From IMG/VR virus record IMGVR_UViG_3300033148_002693, positions 1 to 64,000 of that record: a DNA stretch of 64,000 bases, one strand, 5' to 3'. Of this stretch, positions 8,703 through 24,334 are shown in pieces. Numbering within the stretch: position 1 is the first letter of the stretch; every line of letters starts with the position of its first letter. The notes below the pieces were generated by a model. The model was given only the letters and a program-made list of their open reading frames with translations. It was not told where the DNA came from and searched no databases. This DNA comes from a virus. The position numbers were made by a program, and so were the translations under genes.

Positions 8703-8785
8703 TTGGAGAACCGATTGTTCCATTGACTTGTGACAAGTGTCATTGAGTACGTTATGAGAGATGTATTCACAAAGCACGTAGGAGG

Positions 8786-8986
8786 TTGATTATGAAGGTG
8801 GTTTTCAGAGACAGAGAGTTGCTTGAAGAAGCTATCGTGAAGCCACGCCAGCGACGCCGCAAACAGGTGAAGGGCGATCTTGAGAAGGCGTCAGATTGTA
8901 CGCTGGACTTGCTTGCGATAAGACTCGGTTGCGAGAGGGATGTGGAGAGCATTGCGACGGCTCTCGTTCCTGAATTGAGTATTTGA
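8786..8986 (+). CDS. Small hypothetical protein, possibly DNA-binding
   Basis: AGGAGG RBS; basic segment followed by a short helical region. Confidence 0.45.
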   Translation: MIMKVVFRDRELLEEAIVKPRQRRRKQVKGDLEKASDCTLDLLAIRLGCERDVESIATALVPELSI

Positions 8987-9011
8987 CAATATAATCGCAA
9001 TCTGTTATACT
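8983..9011 (+). promoter_or_regulatory. Sigma70 promoter for the RNA array and Ro60 gene
   Basis: TTGACA(8983-8988)-17-TATACT(9006-9011) with extended TG; predicted start near 9017-9018 coincides with the 5' end of RNA unit 1. Confidence 0.85.
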
Positions 9012-9016
9012 GTATA

Positions 9017-9081
9017 TGCGGCAGTGATGGGTGAGTTACTTCGGTCGGGGTACTAAAGCACTCACCCAACTTTACTCCGTA
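9017..9081 (+). ncRNA. Ro60-associated Y RNA-like unit 1 (minimal cargo)
   Basis: TGCGG/CCGTA closing stem, CAGTGA internal loop, TGGGTGAGT/ACTCACCCA stem, TACTTCG motif. Confidence 0.7.
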
Positions 9082-9092
9082 GAGACTAATAT

Positions 9093-9162
9093 CTGTGGCA
9101 GTGATGAGAGAGATACTTCGACTTGAAATCGAGCAATACCTCTCTCTCAGGTATCTCCACAG
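9093..9162 (+). ncRNA. Ro60-associated Y RNA-like unit 2 (Ser-UGA anticodon stem-loop cargo)
   Basis: CTGTGG/CCACAG, CAGTGA, TGAGAGAGA/TCTCTCTCA, TACTTCG; apical TTCGA-CTTGAAA-TCGAG hairpin with a 7-nt anticodon-type loop. Confidence 0.75.
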
Positions 9163-9176
9163 TAAAGTGGAATCAG

Positions 9177-9307
9177 ACCGTGACACTGATGAGAGGGCTA
9201 CTTCGTAGCTCAACTGGCAGAGCATTACCCTGTAAAGGTAACAGTTTAGGTTCAATTCCTAACGAGGCCGAAAGGTCTAAATCCCTCTCAAGTTTTTCGT
9301 TCACGGT
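9177..9307 (+). ncRNA. Ro60-associated Y RNA-like unit 3 (tRNA-Tyr(GUA)-like cargo)
   Basis: ACCGTGA/TCACGGT, CACTGA, TGAGAGGG/CCCTCTCA, TACTTCG; D arm GCTC-AACTGGCA-GAGC, anticodon arm TTACC-CTGTAAA-GGTAA, T arm TTAGG-TTCAATT-CCTAA. Confidence 0.8.
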
Positions 9308-9325
9308 AAATGAAAGGGGAATGGA

Positions 9326-10807
9326 ATGGCAAAGTTTAATGAGAAGTCGAAGGGCACGAAAACCATGAATGTGGCCGGTGGTGCTGCGTTCAAGGAGTCA
9401 GCCGAACTCGAATTGGTATCTCTCATGCTGACATCGTTTGTCAATGATAGGTACTATGAGAGCGCTCATGATAGCCTGAAAAGGCTGGAACTTCTGATTG
9501 GTGAGGTTGATCCGAAGTTCGCTGCCCAGGCTACTGTGTATGCACGCCAGGAATTTGGGATGCGGTCGATCAGCCATGCCGCCGTCGTTGATATCGTGTG
9601 GGGGGCATCTGGTAGTGATTGGACACGCTCCTTCGTCTACAATGCAATTCATCGTGTCGACGACATGACTGAGATCATGGCCCGGCACATCTCCAAGTAT
9701 GGCAAGCGGCCAATTCCCAATGCGTTGAAGGTCGGGCTTGCCAGGGCGTTCGACAAGTTCGATGACTATCAACTCAGAAAGTATCGTGGGGAGCGCAAGG
9801 CTGTATCGTTGATTGATTTGGTGAACCTGGTTCACCCGAAGCCGACAGAGAGAAACGCCAAGGCCCTTGCGGAACTGGTCTCTGGAAAGTCGAAGGGGGC
9901 GGAGACCTGGGAAGTCAAACTTACTCAGGCAGGCCAGCAGGCGACGAGTAAAGAGGAGAAGGTGAAGCTAAAGGCTGAGGCTTGGAAGTCCCTCTTGGAG
10001 AACCGAAGGATCGGATACTTCGCATTGCTCCGGAACCTGAGAAACATCTTGCAGCAAGCCCCAGAACTTGTGGAGTTGGCTTGTGAGTTGTTGGTCGACG
10101 AGCGGTTGATCAAGAAGTCGCTCGTCATGCCGTTCAGGTACATGGTGGCCCACGACGTTCTGATGAAGGAGAAGGGGGCGTCCAAAATCTTGCCGGCGTT
10201 GAACAAAGCCCTTGAAATCTCTTGCGCCAACGTTCCCAAACTTCCGGGAAAGACTGTGGTCCTCATGGACGACAGCGGGTCGATGACTTGGCGTGGTAGG
10301 TTGAACGGGAAAGATTCAAGCTATTCTGCGGCAGATATTGCAGCGACATTCTCTGCGATTCTGTTGAAAACTCAGCCCGATGCCGATCTAATCATGTTCA
10401 GCAGCAATGCTCGGTACAAGAGCCTGAATACTGATGACAGTATCCTGACCATGACTGCGATCATCAATGCAAGCAAGACCGGCGCAGATACAAATTTCCA
10501 GGTTCCCTTCCAGGTGATGGGAGATACAAAGTACGACCGAATCATCATCTTGTCGGATATGCAGGGATGGATGGGTGGCGGATATGGTTGCCCGGTCAAG
10601 TCGTTCGCTGAGTATCGTGAGCGGAGCGGGGCTGACCCGATTCTTTACTCCTGGGACCTTTGCGACTATGGGACAATGATGTTTCCTGAGCGGAATGTCT
10701 ACGCTTTGGCTGGCTTTAACAGCGAGGTGTTCAGCATCATGGAGTTGTTGGAGCAAGACAAGCAGGCATTGGTGAACAAAATCAAAGATGTAGATTTGAC
10801 AAGTTGA
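9326..10807 (+). CDS. rsr: Ro60/TROVE-domain RNA-binding protein with C-terminal vWA domain
   Basis: N..GG.AF start, YARQEFGMRS, FDDYQLRKY, LVHPKP, TWE, YFALLRNLRNI, PFRY, vWA MIDAS D-D-S-G-S-M, IIILSDMQ. Confidence 0.93.
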   Translation: MAKFNEKSKGTKTMNVAGGAAFKESAELELVSLMLTSFVNDRYYESAHDSLKRLELLIGEVDPKFAAQATVYARQEFGMRSISHAAVVDIVWGASGSDWTRSFVYNAIHRVDDMTEIMARHISKYGKRPIPNALKVGLARAFDKFDDYQLRKYRGERKAVSLIDLVNLVHPKPTERNAKALAELVSGKSKGAETWEVKLTQAGQQATSKEEKVKLKAEAWKSLLENRRIGYFALLRNLRNILQQAPELVELACELLVDERLIKKSLVMPFRYMVAHDVLMKEKGASKILPALNKALEISCANVPKLPGKTVVLMDDSGSMTWRGRLNGKDSSYSAADIAATFSAILLKTQPDADLIMFSSNARYKSLNTDDSILTMTAIINASKTGADTNFQVPFQVMGDTKYDRIIILSDMQGWMGGGYGCPVKSFAEYRERSGADPILYSWDLCDYGTMMFPERNVYALAGFNSEVFSIMELLEQDKQALVNKIKDVDLTS

Positions 10808-10824
10808 GAAAAGTTTGATACAAT
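10796..10824 (+). promoter_or_regulatory. Sigma70-type promoter upstream of the portal leader
   Basis: TTGACA(10796-10801)-17-TACAAT(10819-10824). Confidence 0.7.
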
Positions 10825-10951
10825 GTAGTTACTTATGAGGTGTTCGGTTGGCACAATGGCGTTGGGTAGCGAGGCGCTAAGCGCCTCGTACCCGATTTTA
10901 CCGTAAAACTAGAAAACAATGTTGAGCCCCTATTCCGACCGCAGAGCGAGG

Positions 10952-10980
10952 GCCTGATGCGGAAGCGTCAGGCTTTTTTT
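10952..10980 (+). terminator. Intrinsic terminator-like hairpin directly before the portal gene
   Basis: GCCTGATGC-GGAA-GCGTCAGGC followed by T7. Confidence 0.75.
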
Positions 10981-10997
10981 GTTGCTCGGAGGTCGGG

Positions 10998-12773
10998 ATG
11001 CCTTTCTACGATAGGTTCTTCAAAAGACGATCAGTTGAAACAGATTTCGCAGGAACAGATTTTGCATCGGAGACATTATCGACTGCAATCAAGTCTGTAG
11101 TCAACGACTCTGTTCAACATACCAAGTTCGAGGGCGATATAGATGCTGCTACGTGGTACTCGTTCTTGGCTGAGGTCAGTTCTGGCATTCCCCCATACGG
11201 AACTCAAAAGCGCGACGCATATCTTGGAAACCAATGGCGGAAAGAGGCCATCTTAGCTAGTGCCGTAGCTACTATGGCTATGAAAGTCAGTTCTCAGGAA
11301 TGGACGTTGACTGGTGGCAGAAATTCGGTTGCGCGCTCCCATGCTATCTTGTCCGAATGGGATGGGATGGAAGCAGGATGGACACAGGGCATACAGAAAT
11401 ACGTCGAGGCTATCTGTATTTACGATAGGGGAGCGTTTGTAGAAATCACTCATGCAGGTCGTGATCCTGATGCCCCTGTTACTGGACTCGTTTCGTTCGA
11501 TCCATTGCGATGTATGCCTACTGGAAACGCAGAATTCCCCGTTGTGTGGAAAGATAGTTCAAACACGTGGCAGAAGATTCCTGCCAATAGCGTTGTACAT
11601 CAAGTCATACTTCCGGCGGTGAGCGATAGTTTATTAGGGATGGGATTTAGCCCTGTTAGCCGTGCTCTATCGGCCGCGCAGATATTGATCAGCCTCGTGA
11701 ACTATGATCTTCAGAAGCTTGCAGACTTGCCCCCTCAAGGTCTTGCGATTGTGTCGAATATGAGCAGGAAGAAAGTTCAAGAAGGATTCAATGAGTTCTT
11801 GGCGCACAAAGCCAACAAAGGCAATACTATATGGTCAGGGTTGCTTTGGCTGATTCCTGGCGGGTCTGTTGGGAAGGCTCCACAACCGGATGTGAAGTTC
11901 GTTCCGTTTGCTGAATTGCCTGACCAGTTCGACCGTAAACTCATGTACGAAATCTATGTGAAGATTCTCGCTATCTGTTTCGGGGTTGATGTGTCTGAGT
12001 TCTGGCAAGTGGATCATGCCGGCGTTACCAAAGCTGAGGCTGCTGTCCAGCATCTGAAAGCTAAGGGTAAGGGGATCGGTGATATTCTGTCTGGTATTGA
12101 ACGTTGGGTTAATCTCAAGGTTTTGCCTTCATCTGTTCAGTTTCATTTCGATGCTATTGATGATGAACAAGATGCGTCCAGGGCGGAGATAAGTAAGATC
12201 AACGTTCAGTACGTTTCTGAGTTGTACAAGATTCCCAATGGTCAGATTGAAAGCCTTATTGACCGCTACGAGGCGAGGCAGCTTTTGTCCAGGCTGAGGG
12301 TGTTACCATCTGACATGGTTGACACAGATGAAGATATTCGAACCGACACTGAATCTAAGGTCAATTCGCATGACAAGTTGATGCGTAGTATAGCCTATAA
12401 CCGTGGTGAAGATATTTTGAGGGTGAATTCTGCCGGCGACATTATCATGGTCTGGGAAGCCAGCAGAACGTTCCCTGGGTTTGAACTTGTGAAGTCGCCG
12501 TTGTTCATTGGCGGTAATGGAAAAGAAGAGAAGCAATTGCGATTGCCAGGGGACGGGATAGATTTGACGAAACCCGAACCGGAAGAGGTAGACAAGCCAG
12601 ACAATTTGTCTCAAGAGGTGGGCGATCTGGACAATTGGAGGAAGTCTGACATCGGTGGCTGGTATAGAGACCTGGGTGAGTTTGTTGGCGGGTTCTTGGG
12701 TGATATCGAGGAACGTGAAAGCGAGTTCGTTGATGAGGAACCAGTGGAGATAGAGGAAGGGGTGATGCTGTAG
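10998..12773 (+). CDS. Portal protein
   Basis: 591 aa; first gene of the head module; G.SP...A, I...FGVD..EF, L..IERW.N....P..V.F.FD patterns of HK97-like portals. Confidence 0.85.
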   Translation: MPFYDRFFKRRSVETDFAGTDFASETLSTAIKSVVNDSVQHTKFEGDIDAATWYSFLAEVSSGIPPYGTQKRDAYLGNQWRKEAILASAVATMAMKVSSQEWTLTGGRNSVARSHAILSEWDGMEAGWTQGIQKYVEAICIYDRGAFVEITHAGRDPDAPVTGLVSFDPLRCMPTGNAEFPVVWKDSSNTWQKIPANSVVHQVILPAVSDSLLGMGFSPVSRALSAAQILISLVNYDLQKLADLPPQGLAIVSNMSRKKVQEGFNEFLAHKANKGNTIWSGLLWLIPGGSVGKAPQPDVKFVPFAELPDQFDRKLMYEIYVKILAICFGVDVSEFWQVDHAGVTKAEAAVQHLKAKGKGIGDILSGIERWVNLKVLPSSVQFHFDAIDDEQDASRAEISKINVQYVSELYKIPNGQIESLIDRYEARQLLSRLRVLPSDMVDTDEDIRTDTESKVNSHDKLMRSIAYNRGEDILRVNSAGDIIMVWEASRTFPGFELVKSPLFIGGNGKEEKQLRLPGDGIDLTKPEPEEVDKPDNLSQEVGDLDNWRKSDIGGWYRDLGEFVGGFLGDIEERESEFVDEEPVEIEEGVML

Positions 12774-23272: not shown

Positions 23273-24334
23273 ATGAAACTACACCTAGCCGAACACGACC
23301 TTCAACATCAAGCCTGGGCTAAACATGGCGTTGAAAGGCGAAACCTAAGACTCAAGGTCTTGCTATCATATTGGTACTATAAGAATGCCGATCTTGATGA
23401 TTTATTTGTAAGGTATTTCACGAAACCATACCCAGAGGTGTTTGCTGATAGCGGCGCTTTCTCCGCTATGACACAGAACGGCGTAGTCAATTTGAAAGAG
23501 TACGCAGACTGGATCAAACGTTACCAACATCTCTTCAATGCGTATGCAAACCTTGATGTTATCAAAGACGCCGAAGCAACTTGGACGAATCAGCAACGTC
23601 TTGAGAAGATGGGATTAAACCCGCTCCCTGTGTTTCACATTTTAGAAGATTGGAAGTGGCTTGAGCATTATCTTGAACGCTATCAGTATATTTGCCTCGG
23701 TGTGGCTGGTATGCAATCTCGACGTGCGGCTGTTATGCGTTGGCTTACAAGATGTTTCAAGATGGCAAATGGAAGGGCGGTGTATCACGGATTCGGGCTT
23801 ACTGGTTGGGATGTTATGAAATCGTTCCCCTGGTACAGCGTTGATTCGTCAAGTTGGGGCAAGGGTTTTCGTTGGGGCAAAGTCCCTGTGTTTGATGAAA
23901 AACTTGGAAAGTTTCACCAACCCGGATTGGGCAATAGAAAGGATTGGCTTAAGGTAGCTGATATTGTTCGTTCGTTTGGGTTTGATCCTTTGGATTTTGC
24001 AGACCGTGAACGCAATGATAGAATGAAGATATGCGCCATCTCAGCACTGTCTTATATGATAGCAGAACAATGGCTACGAAAGAGGCACGGTGAGATTAGG
24101 ATTCCCAAACGCAATGATGTATCGGATTCAAAGATATGTTTGGTAACAGCTGGTGGTGATGGGAGCAATATGGGTTTGAGAGCGTTGAGCCGTTATGGTG
24201 TTTGCGTGCATCTAAGCGATATAAGCAATGGGGTCAATTTCAGAGATGCGGACAAAGGCATAAAACTACATCTAGCCGATTCAACTACCGGCGATAACTT
24301 CGACATAGGAAGGGTGGGTAAATACCTTGAGTAG
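23273..24334 (+). CDS. DpdA/tRNA-guanine transglycosylase-like protein
   Basis: FADSGAFS, YANLDVI, PVFH, YICLG, HGFG, SVDSSSW motifs of phage TGT-like proteins; adjacent to queD/queE/folE. Confidence 0.75.
   Translation: MKLHLAEHDLQHQAWAKHGVERRNLRLKVLLSYWYYKNADLDDLFVRYFTKPYPEVFADSGAFSAMTQNGVVNLKEYADWIKRYQHLFNAYANLDVIKDAEATWTNQQRLEKMGLNPLPVFHILEDWKWLEHYLERYQYICLGVAGMQSRRAAVMRWLTRCFKMANGRAVYHGFGLTGWDVMKSFPWYSVDSSSWGKGFRWGKVPVFDEKLGKFHQPGLGNRKDWLKVADIVRSFGFDPLDFADRERNDRMKICAISALSYMIAEQWLRKRHGEIRIPKRNDVSDSKICLVTAGGDGSNMGLRALSRYGVCVHLSDISNGVNFRDADKGIKLHLADSTTGDNFDIGRVGKYLE

What the first reader, a model, noticed from the sequence alone, without database searches (positions are those of the whole stretch)
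8983..10807. Phage Ro60 fed by a tandem array of scaffold RNAs displaying interchangeable tRNA-derived cargos
Seen in sequence: one promoter drives three tandem units (9017-9081, 9093-9162, 9177-9307) and then the Ro60 gene. Each unit has the same layout: closing stem, CA(G/C)TGA internal loop, an 8-9-bp stem, TACTTCG, cargo, complementary strand. The stems differ in sequence but keep pairing (TGGGTGAG/CTCACCCA, TGAGAGAG/CTCTCTCA, TGAGAGGG/CCCTCTCA), which is covariation within the locus. The cargos differ: unit 1 has a minimal loop; unit 2 has a stem capped by CUUGAAA, a canonical anticodon loop for Ser(UGA); unit 3 has D, anticodon (CUGUAAA, Tyr GUA) and T arms on a shortened acceptor stem with no CCA end. 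Units 2 and 3 close their cargo with the same TTCG/CGAG helix. Established: Ro60/Rsr binds Y RNAs encoded next to it, and bacterial YrlA RNAs mimic tRNA but put the Ro-binding stem where the anticodon arm would be. Here the geometry is reversed and the anticodon loop is exposed. Inference: a modular RNP in which Ro60 presents anticodon loops, as decoys or inhibitors of host anticodon nucleases or as tethers for tRNA-handling enzymes.
Basis: partly seen in the sequence, partly recalled or inferred. Interest (0 to 1): 0.93.

Follow-up and report, generated by a model that had tools for sequence, protein, structure and literature searches.

The report
Phage Ro60 with three partner RNAs
A complete 99-kb phage encodes the ring-shaped RNA-binding protein Ro60 just after three small RNA genes that share one conserved 'handle' and carry either nothing, an anticodon-arm look-alike or a whole sealed tRNA look-alike. 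This is the known Ro60/Y-RNA partnership, in a widespread form that I found described in no paper I could search and in no Rfam family.

Summary
Positions 9017-9307 hold three independently folding units with one shared layout, followed by an intact Ro60 gene (TROVE plus vWA domains). The layout is not a local coincidence. A covariance model of the handle finds 97 copies in 73 related phage loci, all on the Ro60 strand, with strong covariation. Relatives of unit 3 were retrieved with an RNA-only pattern. They occur in 26 viral and 57 bacterial stretches, and a Ro60 gene was found in the fetched DNA of 24 and 40 of them (in the bacterial set always on the same strand). Their anticodon stems covary and their 7-nt loops keep the tRNA signature, but the triplet varies freely.

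So this is a Y RNA array, a known kind: Chen 2014 described YrlA/YrlB, and Hu 2025 showed that a Thermus phage Ro60 binds two upstream Y-like RNAs. The variant is that the tRNA body is in natural order with the anticodon arm exposed and the acceptor end sealed by a capped hairpin. The Rfam YrlA model does not match the window; the tRNA model and ARAGORN call unit 3 tRNA-Tyr. The decoy or inhibitor idea is untested and was already suggested for YrlA (Hughes 2020). This scan has noted similar arrays on other DNA.

The parts
8983..9011 (+). Sigma-70-type promoter-like site (-35 TTGACA at 8983-8988, 17-nt spacer, extended TG, -10 TATACT at 9006-9011). The predicted start, about 9018, is the 5' end of unit 1.
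   Evidence: 11 of 12 matches. A consensus match only; no transcript data.
9017..9081 (+). Unit 1, a short Y RNA (YrlB-like). Lower stem 9017-9021/9077-9081; bulged C 9022; conserved helix AGUGA 9023-9027 with UUACU 9072-9076; upper stem 9028-9035/9061-9068; UACUUCG 9037-9043; small apical region 9044-9060.
   Evidence: -27.3 kcal/mol, z -3.8; model R1 46.4 bits; this unit was in the training set
9093..9162 (+). Unit 2, a Y RNA whose only cargo is an anticodon-arm look-alike. Lower stem 9093-9098/9157-9162; bulged C 9099; AGUGA 9100-9104; upper stem 9105-9112/9142-9149; UACUUCG 9114-9120; hairpin UUCGA 9117-9121 / loop CUUGAAA 9122-9128 / UCGAG 9129-9133.
   Evidence: (z -3.3). The hairpin is the counterpart of the 5-bp/7-nt 'V' arm of the permuted YrlA-type units in relatives. 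The same loop sits on a different stem in L067:1390-1477 and L095.
9177..9307 (+). Unit 3, a Y RNA carrying a natural-order, sealed tRNA look-alike. Lower stem 9177-9183/9301-9307; bulged C 9184; ACUGA 9185-9189; upper stem 9190-9197/9283-9290; UACUUCG 9199-9205.
   Evidence: It aligns with 30 homologues in A4, whose consensus fold has the same helices.
9202..9266 (+). tRNA-like body of unit 3. Acceptor mini-helix UUCG 9202-9205 with CGAG 9263-9266; U8 A9 9206-9207; D arm 9208-9223; anticodon stem 9225-9229/9237-9241; loop CUGUAAA 9230-9236 (GUA 9232-9234); 4-nt variable region 9242-9245; T arm 9246-9262.
   Evidence: Rfam tRNA 52.5 bits, E 7e-10; ARAGORN. The A15:U48, G18 G19 and T-loop positions are read from the sequence.
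9267..9276 (+). GAAA-capped hairpin directly after the acceptor 3' strand. Read as the sealed outer part of an acceptor-arm mimic: mini-helix plus hairpin is about 8 bp.
   Evidence: Equivalent capped hairpins occur in most natural-order homologues, where helix plus hairpin sums to about 7-8 bp. The coaxial stacking is an inference.
9326..10807 (+). Ro60 orthologue, 493 aa, TROVE/HEAT ring plus vWA domain. A DDSGS sequence in the aligned vWA part fits the D-x-S-x-S form of a MIDAS motif; that reading rests on my own knowledge of the motif. An RBS-like GAAAGGGG lies at 9312-9319.
   Evidence: Pfam; closest solved structure is Thermus phage phiLo Ro60, 9KOP/9L5Y, E 7e-26; also X. laevis and D. 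radiodurans Ro60; 136 phage records and more than 130 viral contigs with homologues

Best explanation
The locus is a Ro60/Y-RNA operon of a 98.7-kb tailed phage. One promoter probably transcribes three Y RNA genes and then the Ro60 gene.

Each RNA has a constant handle. It consists of a terminal stem, a conserved helix with a one-base bulge and a central mismatch (5' AGYGA with 3' UUNCU), a freely covarying 8-9-bp upper stem, and a junction motif YUAC-UUCG. By analogy with the bulged helix that Ro60 contacts in animal and bacterial Y RNAs, this handle is the Ro60 docking site (inferred).

The apical end is a modular effector domain. It is nearly empty in unit 1 and an anticodon-arm mimic in unit 2. 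In unit 3 it is a complete L-shaped tRNA mimic in natural order. Its acceptor arm is formed by the scaffold's UUCG, the CGAG after the T arm, and a GAAA-capped hairpin. It therefore has no free 3' end, cannot be charged, and leaves the elbow and anticodon arm exposed.

The RNPs most likely work as described for D. radiodurans, Salmonella and Thermus phage phiLo. There the Y RNA gates the Ro60 ring and tethers it to a host factor such as PNPase. Here the tRNA-like modules probably engage tRNA-binding host proteins (inferred; the partner is unknown).

Shown: the gene content, the folds, the family-wide covariation and the Ro60 linkage. Inferred: co-transcription, processing, Ro60 binding and every functional step.
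For: - Ro60 identity.
- The units fold independently.
- The handle is a family. Model R1 gives 97 hits in 73 related loci, all on the Ro60 strand and mostly 50-600 nt upstream of Ro60.
- Handle covariation: 87.2% of cells are paired against 65.3% in shuffles. The covariation score is 0.593 against 0.206, with 0 of 500 shuffles as high. Slid controls give about 50% paired. All 9 upper-stem pairs show compensatory changes (for the MAFFT alignment).
- Permuted units on the same handle in relatives match Rfam YrlA over its full length, at 30-45 bits and E down to 1e-6. This ties the family to YrlA.
- Unit 3 belongs to a subclass retrieved by RNA pattern alone: 26 viral stretches, 24 with a Ro60 homologue, and 57 bacterial stretches, 40 with Ro60, always on the same strand.
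- Consensus fold of 31 subclass members: upper stem plus D, anticodon and T arms. 93.0% of cells are paired against 71.8% in shuffles, and the covariation score is 0.584 against 0.172, 0 of 500. All 5 anticodon-stem pairs are compensatory.
- Published precedent: Y RNAs with tRNA-like domains next to Ro60, including in phages (PMC4201824). A phage Ro60 binds two upstream Y-like RNAs and host PNPase (PMC12135203).
Against: - No Rfam Y_RNA or YrlA match to the window units, even at E <= 10.
- The presumed Ro60-binding motif (CAGUGAU / CACUGAU) is not the published GNCGAA(N)G or GGUCCGA.
- No expression or binding data were available.
- The complete phage genome has no RtcB and no Rnl2-type RNA ligase. 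The RNA-repair context seen in Salmonella is therefore absent.
- In the window nothing separates the array from the Ro60 coding region, so a role as an mRNA leader cannot be ruled out from this sequence alone.
Confidence: 0.78

Rival explanations
1. The Ro60-bound RNAs present specific anticodon loops as decoys or competitive inhibitors of host anticodon nucleases, or as baits for other anticodon-reading enzymes. Specificity is set by the displayed triplet (Ser UGA in unit 2, Tyr GUA in unit 3). This concerns function and is compatible with the Y RNA identity above.
For: - Anticodon arms are under structural selection. The stems covary at 5 of 5 pairs.
- The 7-nt loops keep Y32, U33 and R37: 21/21, 18/21 and 20/21 in viral units, and 46/52, 44/52 and 47/52 in bacterial units.
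- The V arms of permuted units show the same signature.
- The acceptor end is sealed, so the mimic cannot enter translation.
- The CUUGAAA loop recurs on unrelated stems.
- Units within one array carry different triplets.
- Literature: Hughes 2020 (PMC7790460) suggested that YrlA may competitively inhibit an anticodon nuclease. A Ro60-like protein of phage Bas63 counters the ppl defence (PMC11482910).
Against: - There is no functional test.
- The triplets are almost unconstrained: 13 types in 21 viral units and 26 in 52 bacterial units.
- Many start with A34 or are otherwise unused in bacterial decoding (AUU, AUG, AGG, AUA, UCA). This is what neutral drift at three unconstrained positions would give.
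- The same RNA class sits in bacterial MAG contigs as well as in phages, so it is not specifically an anti-defence device.
- No nuclease or defence gene is linked to it here.
Confidence: 0.13
2. Unit 3 is simply a phage tRNA-Tyr gene used in translation. Units 1 and 2 are processing or stabilising hairpins of its precursor.
For: ARAGORN calls tRNA-Tyr(GTA), and Rfam tRNA scores 52.5 bits against a gathering score of 29. The D and T loops have the standard tertiary-pair nucleotides.
Against: - The acceptor stem has only 4-5 pairs, then two mismatches. Its 5' strand is the scaffold motif shared with the units that have no tRNA body.
- The 3' side runs into a capped hairpin and then the handle, with no discriminator or CCA context.
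- Bacterial tRNA-Tyr has a long variable arm (own knowledge); here the variable region is 4 nt.
- ARAGORN called 39 of the 87 pattern matches (duplicates included) tRNAs, often with non-decoding anticodons.
- The class tracks Ro60 genes, not tRNA arrays.
Confidence: 0.04
3. The structured region is the 5' leader of the Ro60 mRNA. It would be a cis-regulatory element, for example for autoregulation by Ro60 binding to its own leader, rather than a set of free RNAs.
For: In the window there is no terminator between unit 3 and the Ro60 start. The RBS follows unit 3 by a few bases.
Against: - In relatives the arrays end in strong terminator hairpins before Ro60 (L001, L003, L004, L007).
- In other relatives the arrays lie downstream of Ro60 (L096, L098, L101, L109).
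- Copy number varies from 1 to at least 6.
- Phage phiLo Yrl RNAs bind Ro60 as free RNAs in vitro (PMC12135203).
Confidence: 0.05

Closest known systems
YrlA / YrlB Y RNAs with Rsr (Ro60) of Salmonella, Mycobacterium and mycobacteriophages (Rfam RF02553; Chen et al. 2014, PMC4201824; Wang et al. 2018, bioRxiv 312249)
   Same: - Encoded beside Ro60 on the same strand, often several per locus.
- A terminal stem carries the presumed Ro60 site.
- A YUAY junction motif is present (here UUAC, AUAC, CUAC).
- One RNA carries a tRNA mimic with a closed acceptor end and others lack it, as YrlB does.
- Relatives on the same handle match RF02553 below threshold.
   Different: - The window units do not match RF02553 at all.
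- The 5' motif is AGUGA or ACUGA, not GNCGAA.
- Unit 3 has the arms in natural tRNA order (D, anticodon, T) with a full anticodon arm. YrlA has T, closed acceptor, D, and in Salmonella no anticodon loop.
- The Ro60 stem joins at the acceptor arm, not at the anticodon stem.
Deinococcus radiodurans Yrn1 with Rsr and PNPase (RYPER; described in Chen et al. 2014, PMC4201824)
   Same: The tRNA-like features are in the natural orientation, with a potential anticodon arm between the D-like and T arms. Both strands of the Ro60-binding helix are recognisable.
   Different: - According to the paper, Yrn1 has a 6-nt 'anticodon loop' and no clear D arm. Unit 3 and its 80-odd relatives have full cloverleaf bodies that score as tRNA.
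- No sequence comparison with Yrn1 was made here.
Thermus phage phiLo Ro60 with Yrl1 and Yrl2 (Hu et al. 2025, PMC12135203; PDB 9KOP, 9L5Y)
   Same: - It is the closest solved protein (E 7e-26).
- Tandem Y-like RNAs lie upstream of a phage Ro60 gene.
- Binding and a ternary complex with host PNPase were shown experimentally there.
   Different: - The phiLo RNAs were defined by a CGAA motif and a stem-bulge-stem fold.
- That paper mentions 'tRNA' only twice and 'anticodon' never, so it describes no tRNA-like module.
- Their sequences were not compared here.
Canonical tRNA (Rfam RF00005)
   Same: Unit 3's body has D, anticodon and T arms with the standard conserved nucleotides and scores 52.5 bits.
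   Different: - The acceptor stem is truncated and sealed.
- There is no free 5' or 3' end.
- The body is embedded in the Ro60 handle.
- Family members carry non-decoding triplets.
Ro60-like gp130 of Felix O1-type phage Bas63 (PhageMaP preprint, PMC11482910)
   Same: A phage Ro60-like protein next to tRNA-like genes. The authors suspect that some annotated tRNAs are Y RNAs.
   Different: A genetic phenotype (countering the ppl defence) is reported there but no RNA partners were defined. No relation to this phage was tested.

Membership tests
Y RNA (Ro60 partner RNA, general definition) | Encoded next to a Ro60/TROVE gene, same strand | tested here: met
   The units lie 19-309 nt upstream of the Ro60 ORF. 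The handle family lies on the Ro60 strand in 97 of 97 hits.
Y RNA (Ro60 partner RNA, general definition) | 5' and 3' ends pair into a long stem that contains a conserved bulged helix, the Ro60 site | tested here: met
   Terminal stem plus a 1-nt bulge plus the AGYGA/UUNCU helix. The lower helix is 81.9% paired and the upper stem 92.9% paired, with covariation.
Y RNA (Ro60 partner RNA, general definition) | Sequence of the Ro60-binding motif (GGUCCGA in animals, GNCGAA(N)G in YrlA) | tested here: inconclusive
   The window has CAGUGAU or CACUGAU. Relatives often have AGCGA(A/U), which contains CGA(A). The motif is similar but not identical.
Y RNA (Ro60 partner RNA, general definition) | Physically bound by Ro60 | not testable with these tools
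   Needs a pull-down or EMSA. No RNA sequencing run was listed.
YrlA (Rfam RF02553) | Match to the Rfam model at its gathering score (69 bits) | tested here: not met
   No hit in the window region at E <= 10 or in the whole phage genome. Permuted relatives reach only 30-45 bits.
YrlA (Rfam RF02553) | tRNA-like domain in the order T arm, closed acceptor stem-loop, D arm, with the Ro60 stem in place of the anticodon arm | tested here: not met
   Unit 3 has the order D, anticodon, T, then the capped hairpin. Units 1 and 2 have no T or D arm.
YrlA (Rfam RF02553) | Conserved YUAY at the junction above the Ro60 stem | tested here: met
   UUAC, AUAC and CUAC directly after the upper stem in units 1-3. 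This is invariant or nearly so across the family.
tRNA (RF00005), decoding tRNA-Tyr | Cloverleaf with D, anticodon and T arms and conserved tertiary nucleotides | tested here: met
   52.5 bits, E 7e-10; ARAGORN call.
tRNA (RF00005), decoding tRNA-Tyr | Seven-bp acceptor stem with free ends, a discriminator base and a CCA end (encoded or added) | tested here: not met
   There are 4-5 pairs, then two mismatches. Both strands continue into the handle, and the 3' strand runs into a GAAA hairpin.
tRNA (RF00005), decoding tRNA-Tyr | Long variable arm of bacterial tRNA-Tyr (own knowledge) | tested here: not met
   The variable region is 4 nt, at 9242-9245.

The most novel reading that the evidence does not exclude
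Ro60 rings, in phages and in bacteria, carry sealed full-length tRNA mimics whose exposed anticodon arm is the working part. The RNP would bait, inhibit or sense enzymes that read anticodon loops, such as anticodon nucleases or modification enzymes. The displayed triplet would set the target, so arrays would be sets of differently addressed baits, and changing the triplet would retarget them.
Probability: 0.13. Interest if true: 0.85.

Novelty: new variant of a known kind. Interest (0 to 1): 0.58.

Why it matters
What the tRNA-like domain of bacterial Y RNAs is for has been open since 2014. The variant shown here keeps a complete anticodon arm whose stem covaries, on a body that cannot be charged. 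It occurs in at least 80 retrieved stretches from phage contigs and from MAGs of several bacterial phyla. That gives a direct handle on the question. One can ask which tRNA-binding proteins it captures, and whether the anticodon loop matters, by swapping a triplet.

There is also a practical point. ARAGORN called 39 of the 87 pattern matches (duplicates included) tRNA genes, some with odd anticodons. Phage and MAG tRNA inventories therefore probably contain Y RNAs.

Tried and rejected
- Rfam at the gathering score and at E <= 10 over 8900-11050 gave only tRNA for unit 3, and no Y_RNA or YrlA. YrlA against the whole phage genome gave nothing.
- blastn of the locus against 50,697 phage records gave no DNA match.
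- Model R1 does not find unit 3, because its cargo is too long for a model built from short units. Unit 3 was placed in the family with the pattern search and alignment A4 instead.
- Sequencing runs: no RNA holder was listed. No statement on expression or habitat is made.
- RtcB and Rnl2-type RNA ligase are not found in the complete phage genome.
- No neighbour gene of the window's Ro60 (the 591-aa ORF, RadC, the 259-aa ORF) recurs next to the 26 viral natural-order loci. No conserved protein partner was identified.
- The 591-, 259-, 633-, 447- and 553-aa downstream ORFs have no accepted Pfam or PHROG family. The 633-aa ORF gives only a sub-cut-off DUF3492 match, 20 bits against a cut-off of 23.3.
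- The candidate small RNA downstream of Ro60 has no homologue in any fetched locus.
- The host could not be inferred.
- Literature searches found no description of natural-order, anticodon-bearing Y RNAs apart from Yrn1. The Annual Review by Sim et al. 2020 is not held, and Burroughs and Aravind 2016 was not found.
- No structure or complex prediction was run. The Ro60 assignment was already clear from sequence, and the tools do not fold RNA-protein complexes.
Full report
**What is there**

The window belongs to a complete 98,716-bp phage genome with direct terminal repeats. It carries a large terminase, a tape-measure protein, a DNA methyltransferase and a TGT/DpdA-like gene.

At 9326-10807 lies a 493-aa ORF with Pfam TROVE (4e-12) and Ro60 vWA (7e-10) domains. 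Its closest solved relative is the Ro60 of Thermus phage phiLo (9KOP/9L5Y, E 7e-26), followed by human, Xenopus and Deinococcus Ro60.

Upstream there is a near-consensus promoter-like site at 8983-9011. Its expected start coincides with the first base of the first of three tandem units: 9017-9081, 9093-9162 and 9177-9307. No terminator-like site lies between them and Ro60. The units fold as three separate stem-loops, alone and in the 314-nt context.

ARAGORN and Rfam both call the inside of unit 3 a tRNA: tRNA-Tyr GTA, 52.5 bits.

**Is the layout more than a local coincidence?**

Ro60 homologues of 43-52% identity were fetched from 87 viral loci, some of them the same contigs fetched twice with different flanks. 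The word TAC[TC]TCG occurs one to six times in the 100-600 nt upstream of Ro60 on the coding strand, and almost never on the other strand.

In each case the 8 nt before it pair with a stretch downstream. The region is flanked by a 5' (U/C)-AGYGA and a 3' UUNCU next to a terminal stem.

A covariance model built from 31 short units (R1) finds 97 copies in 73 loci, all on the Ro60 strand. On that alignment:
- 87.2% of cells pair, against 65.3% in column shuffles and about 50% when partners are slid.
- The covariation score is 0.593 against 0.206, with 0 of 500 shuffles as high.
- All nine upper-stem pairs show compensatory changes (one search gives the same picture on the MAFFT alignment).

This is the type of element that Ro60 recognises in animal Y RNAs, as summarised in PMC4201824 and PMC12135203.

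**What the handle carries**

The cargo is modular across the family.
- Many units are short, like units 1 and 2.
- Many carry T arm, closed acceptor hairpin and D arm in the permuted order of YrlA. These match Rfam YrlA (RF02553) over its full length at 30-45 bits, below the gathering score of 69, with E down to 1e-6. This links the family to YrlA.
- Of 39 distinct T-arm units with 8-30 nt between the motif and the T stem, 23 also have, just after UAC, a hairpin with a 5-position stem (at least 4 paired) and a 7-nt loop, placed 3-6 nt (mostly 5) before the T stem. That is the register of a tRNA anticodon arm, and U33 is present in 18 of 23 and R37 in 21 of 23. ARAGORN even calls one of them a tRNA (L023).

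Unit 2 of the window is this arm alone, on the conserved UUCGA/UCGAG stem.

**Unit 3 is not a one-off**

I searched with a pattern made only of RNA features: the junction motif plus U8-A9 and the start of the D stem, a gap, then the T loop. It retrieved 26 stretches from IMG/VR and 57 from bacterial genome and MAG contigs. The bacterial ones include Saprospiraceae, Verrucomicrobiota, Holophagaceae, Lachnospiraceae and Rhodothermales.

Nearly all show the same handle around a D-anticodon-T body, followed by CGAN and usually a capped hairpin. A Ro60 homologue lies in 24 of the 26 viral stretches and 40 of the 57 bacterial ones. In the bacterial set, where strand was computed, it is always on the same strand. 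Ro60 identity to the window protein goes down to about 24-30%.

Thirty-one members including the window (A4) give an RNAalifold consensus of upper stem plus D, anticodon and T stems. With the acceptor mini-helix added, 93.0% of cells pair against 71.8% in shuffles. The covariation score is 0.584 against 0.172 (0 of 500). All five anticodon-stem pairs show compensatory changes. The invariance of the motif, D stem and T loop in this set is partly imposed by the search pattern.

The anticodon loops are 7 nt long and keep the tRNA signature:
- Viral units: Y32 in 21 of 21, U33 in 18 of 21, R37 in 20 of 21.
- Bacterial units: 46, 44 and 47 of 52.

The triplet itself is almost free: 13 types in 21 units and 26 in 52. 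L109 carries the same GUA loop as the window. The CUUGAAA loop of unit 2 recurs in L095 and L067 on different stems.

The mini-helix (3-4 bp) plus the following hairpin (3-6 bp) usually sums to 7-8 bp. I read this as a sealed acceptor-arm mimic, analogous to the closed acceptor stem of YrlA. The stacking is inferred.

**What it most likely is and does**

The identity as a Y RNA array for the phage Ro60 is well supported, by:
- adjacency and strand;
- a conserved bulged terminal helix;
- kinship with YrlA;
- published phage precedent, namely two upstream Y-like RNAs that bind phiLo Ro60 and form a complex with host PNPase that damps its activity (PMC12135203).

Function is inferred by analogy: the handle docks on Ro60 and the apical module engages another factor.

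The tRNA mimic cannot be a decoding tRNA. Its acceptor stem has two mismatches and no free end. Its variable region is short for a bacterial tRNA-Tyr. Family members carry triplets such as AUU, AUG, AGG and AUA.

Selection clearly maintains the geometry of the anticodon arm. It is therefore probably part of what the partner recognises, rather than a relic.

Whether the triplet confers specificity is open. Its near-random spectrum fits drift at three unconstrained positions as well as it fits diversification. The phage has no RtcB or Rnl2-type ligase, so an RNA-repair platform would have to use host enzymes.

**Comparison with what is known**

- *Same as YrlA/YrlB:* the location, multiple RNAs per locus, the YUAY junction and a closed acceptor end.
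- *Different from YrlA:* no match to RF02553, AGUGA/ACUGA instead of GNCGAA, natural arm order, a full anticodon arm, and the Ro60 stem entering at the acceptor arm.
- *Yrn1 of D. radiodurans:* it has the natural orientation, but by the authors' account a 6-nt loop and no clear D arm (PMC4201824).
- *The inhibitor idea:* it was proposed for YrlA by Hughes et al. (PMC7790460).
- *Phage Ro60 in general:* jumbo-phage TROVE proteins were noted by Iyer et al. (PMC7824862). A Ro60-like protein of phage Bas63 counters a defence system (PMC11482910).

I found no paper or Rfam family describing the natural-order, anticodon-bearing class.

Earlier notes of this scan report similar handle-plus-cargo arrays beside Ro60-like genes on other DNA. 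Within the scan this is therefore a repeat observation.

**Verdict**

It is a new variant of a known kind, of moderate to good interest. The bold reading (programmable anticodon baits) is not excluded, at roughly one chance in eight.

Noticed in passing
window 10796-10980 (+): A second near-consensus promoter-like site (TTGACA-17-TACAAT, 10796-10824) overlaps the end of the Ro60 gene. A structured stretch of about 150 nt follows, then a strong terminator-like hairpin (10948-10977) just before the next ORF (10998). This is a candidate small RNA or attenuator-type leader. It has no Rfam match and no homologue in any related locus.
   Followed up: partly
L022:1169, L027:1153, L029:1186, L030:1156, L033:1205, L035:1165, L039:1223, L042:1207, L043:1201 (positions of the junction motif): In huge-phage relatives, a second unit on the same handle carries a conserved cargo of roughly 150-225 nt. 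Stretches such as GGUGAAAAAGUCCG and a CGGCAAAGUUUCGGGAGAAUUC-like segment are shared. Two of these loci (L027, L033) were scanned against Rfam and gave no hit at E <= 0.1. This is a large structured RNA domain of unknown kind attached to a Ro60 handle.
   Followed up: partly
same genome, 70144-70214 (+), outside the window: The only other Rfam tRNA hit in the phage (41 bits). Its acceptor, D and T arms look normal, but the anticodon arm is replaced by a CCGC-UUU-GCGG mini-hairpin. ARAGORN does not call it. Earlier notes of the scan describe an RNA-rich island around it.
   Followed up: partly
L088-L170 (natural-order units): ARAGORN of the 87 pattern matches (duplicates included) ordinary tRNA genes. 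Some have anticodons such as AUU, AUG, AGG, AUA, or UCA labelled 'SeC'. tRNA counts in phage and MAG annotations probably include Y RNAs.
   Followed up: yes
L008:279-1017, L079:159-1094, L087:56-848, L050:3343-3996: In several related phage contigs the Ro60/Y RNA locus directly adjoins arrays of 4-9 genuine-looking tRNA genes. The window phage has no such array.
   Followed up: no
window 23273-24334 (+): An ORF matching PHROG 'queuine tRNA-ribosyltransferase' families (1.6e-48). In phages such proteins are usually DpdA-type DNA-modifying enzymes. No link to the GUA-bearing RNA was tested.
   Followed up: no
window 8767-9255 (-): A 162-aa ORF on the opposite strand overlaps the promoter and the RNA array. 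Given the conserved RNA structures on the + strand, it is most likely not a gene.
   Followed up: no
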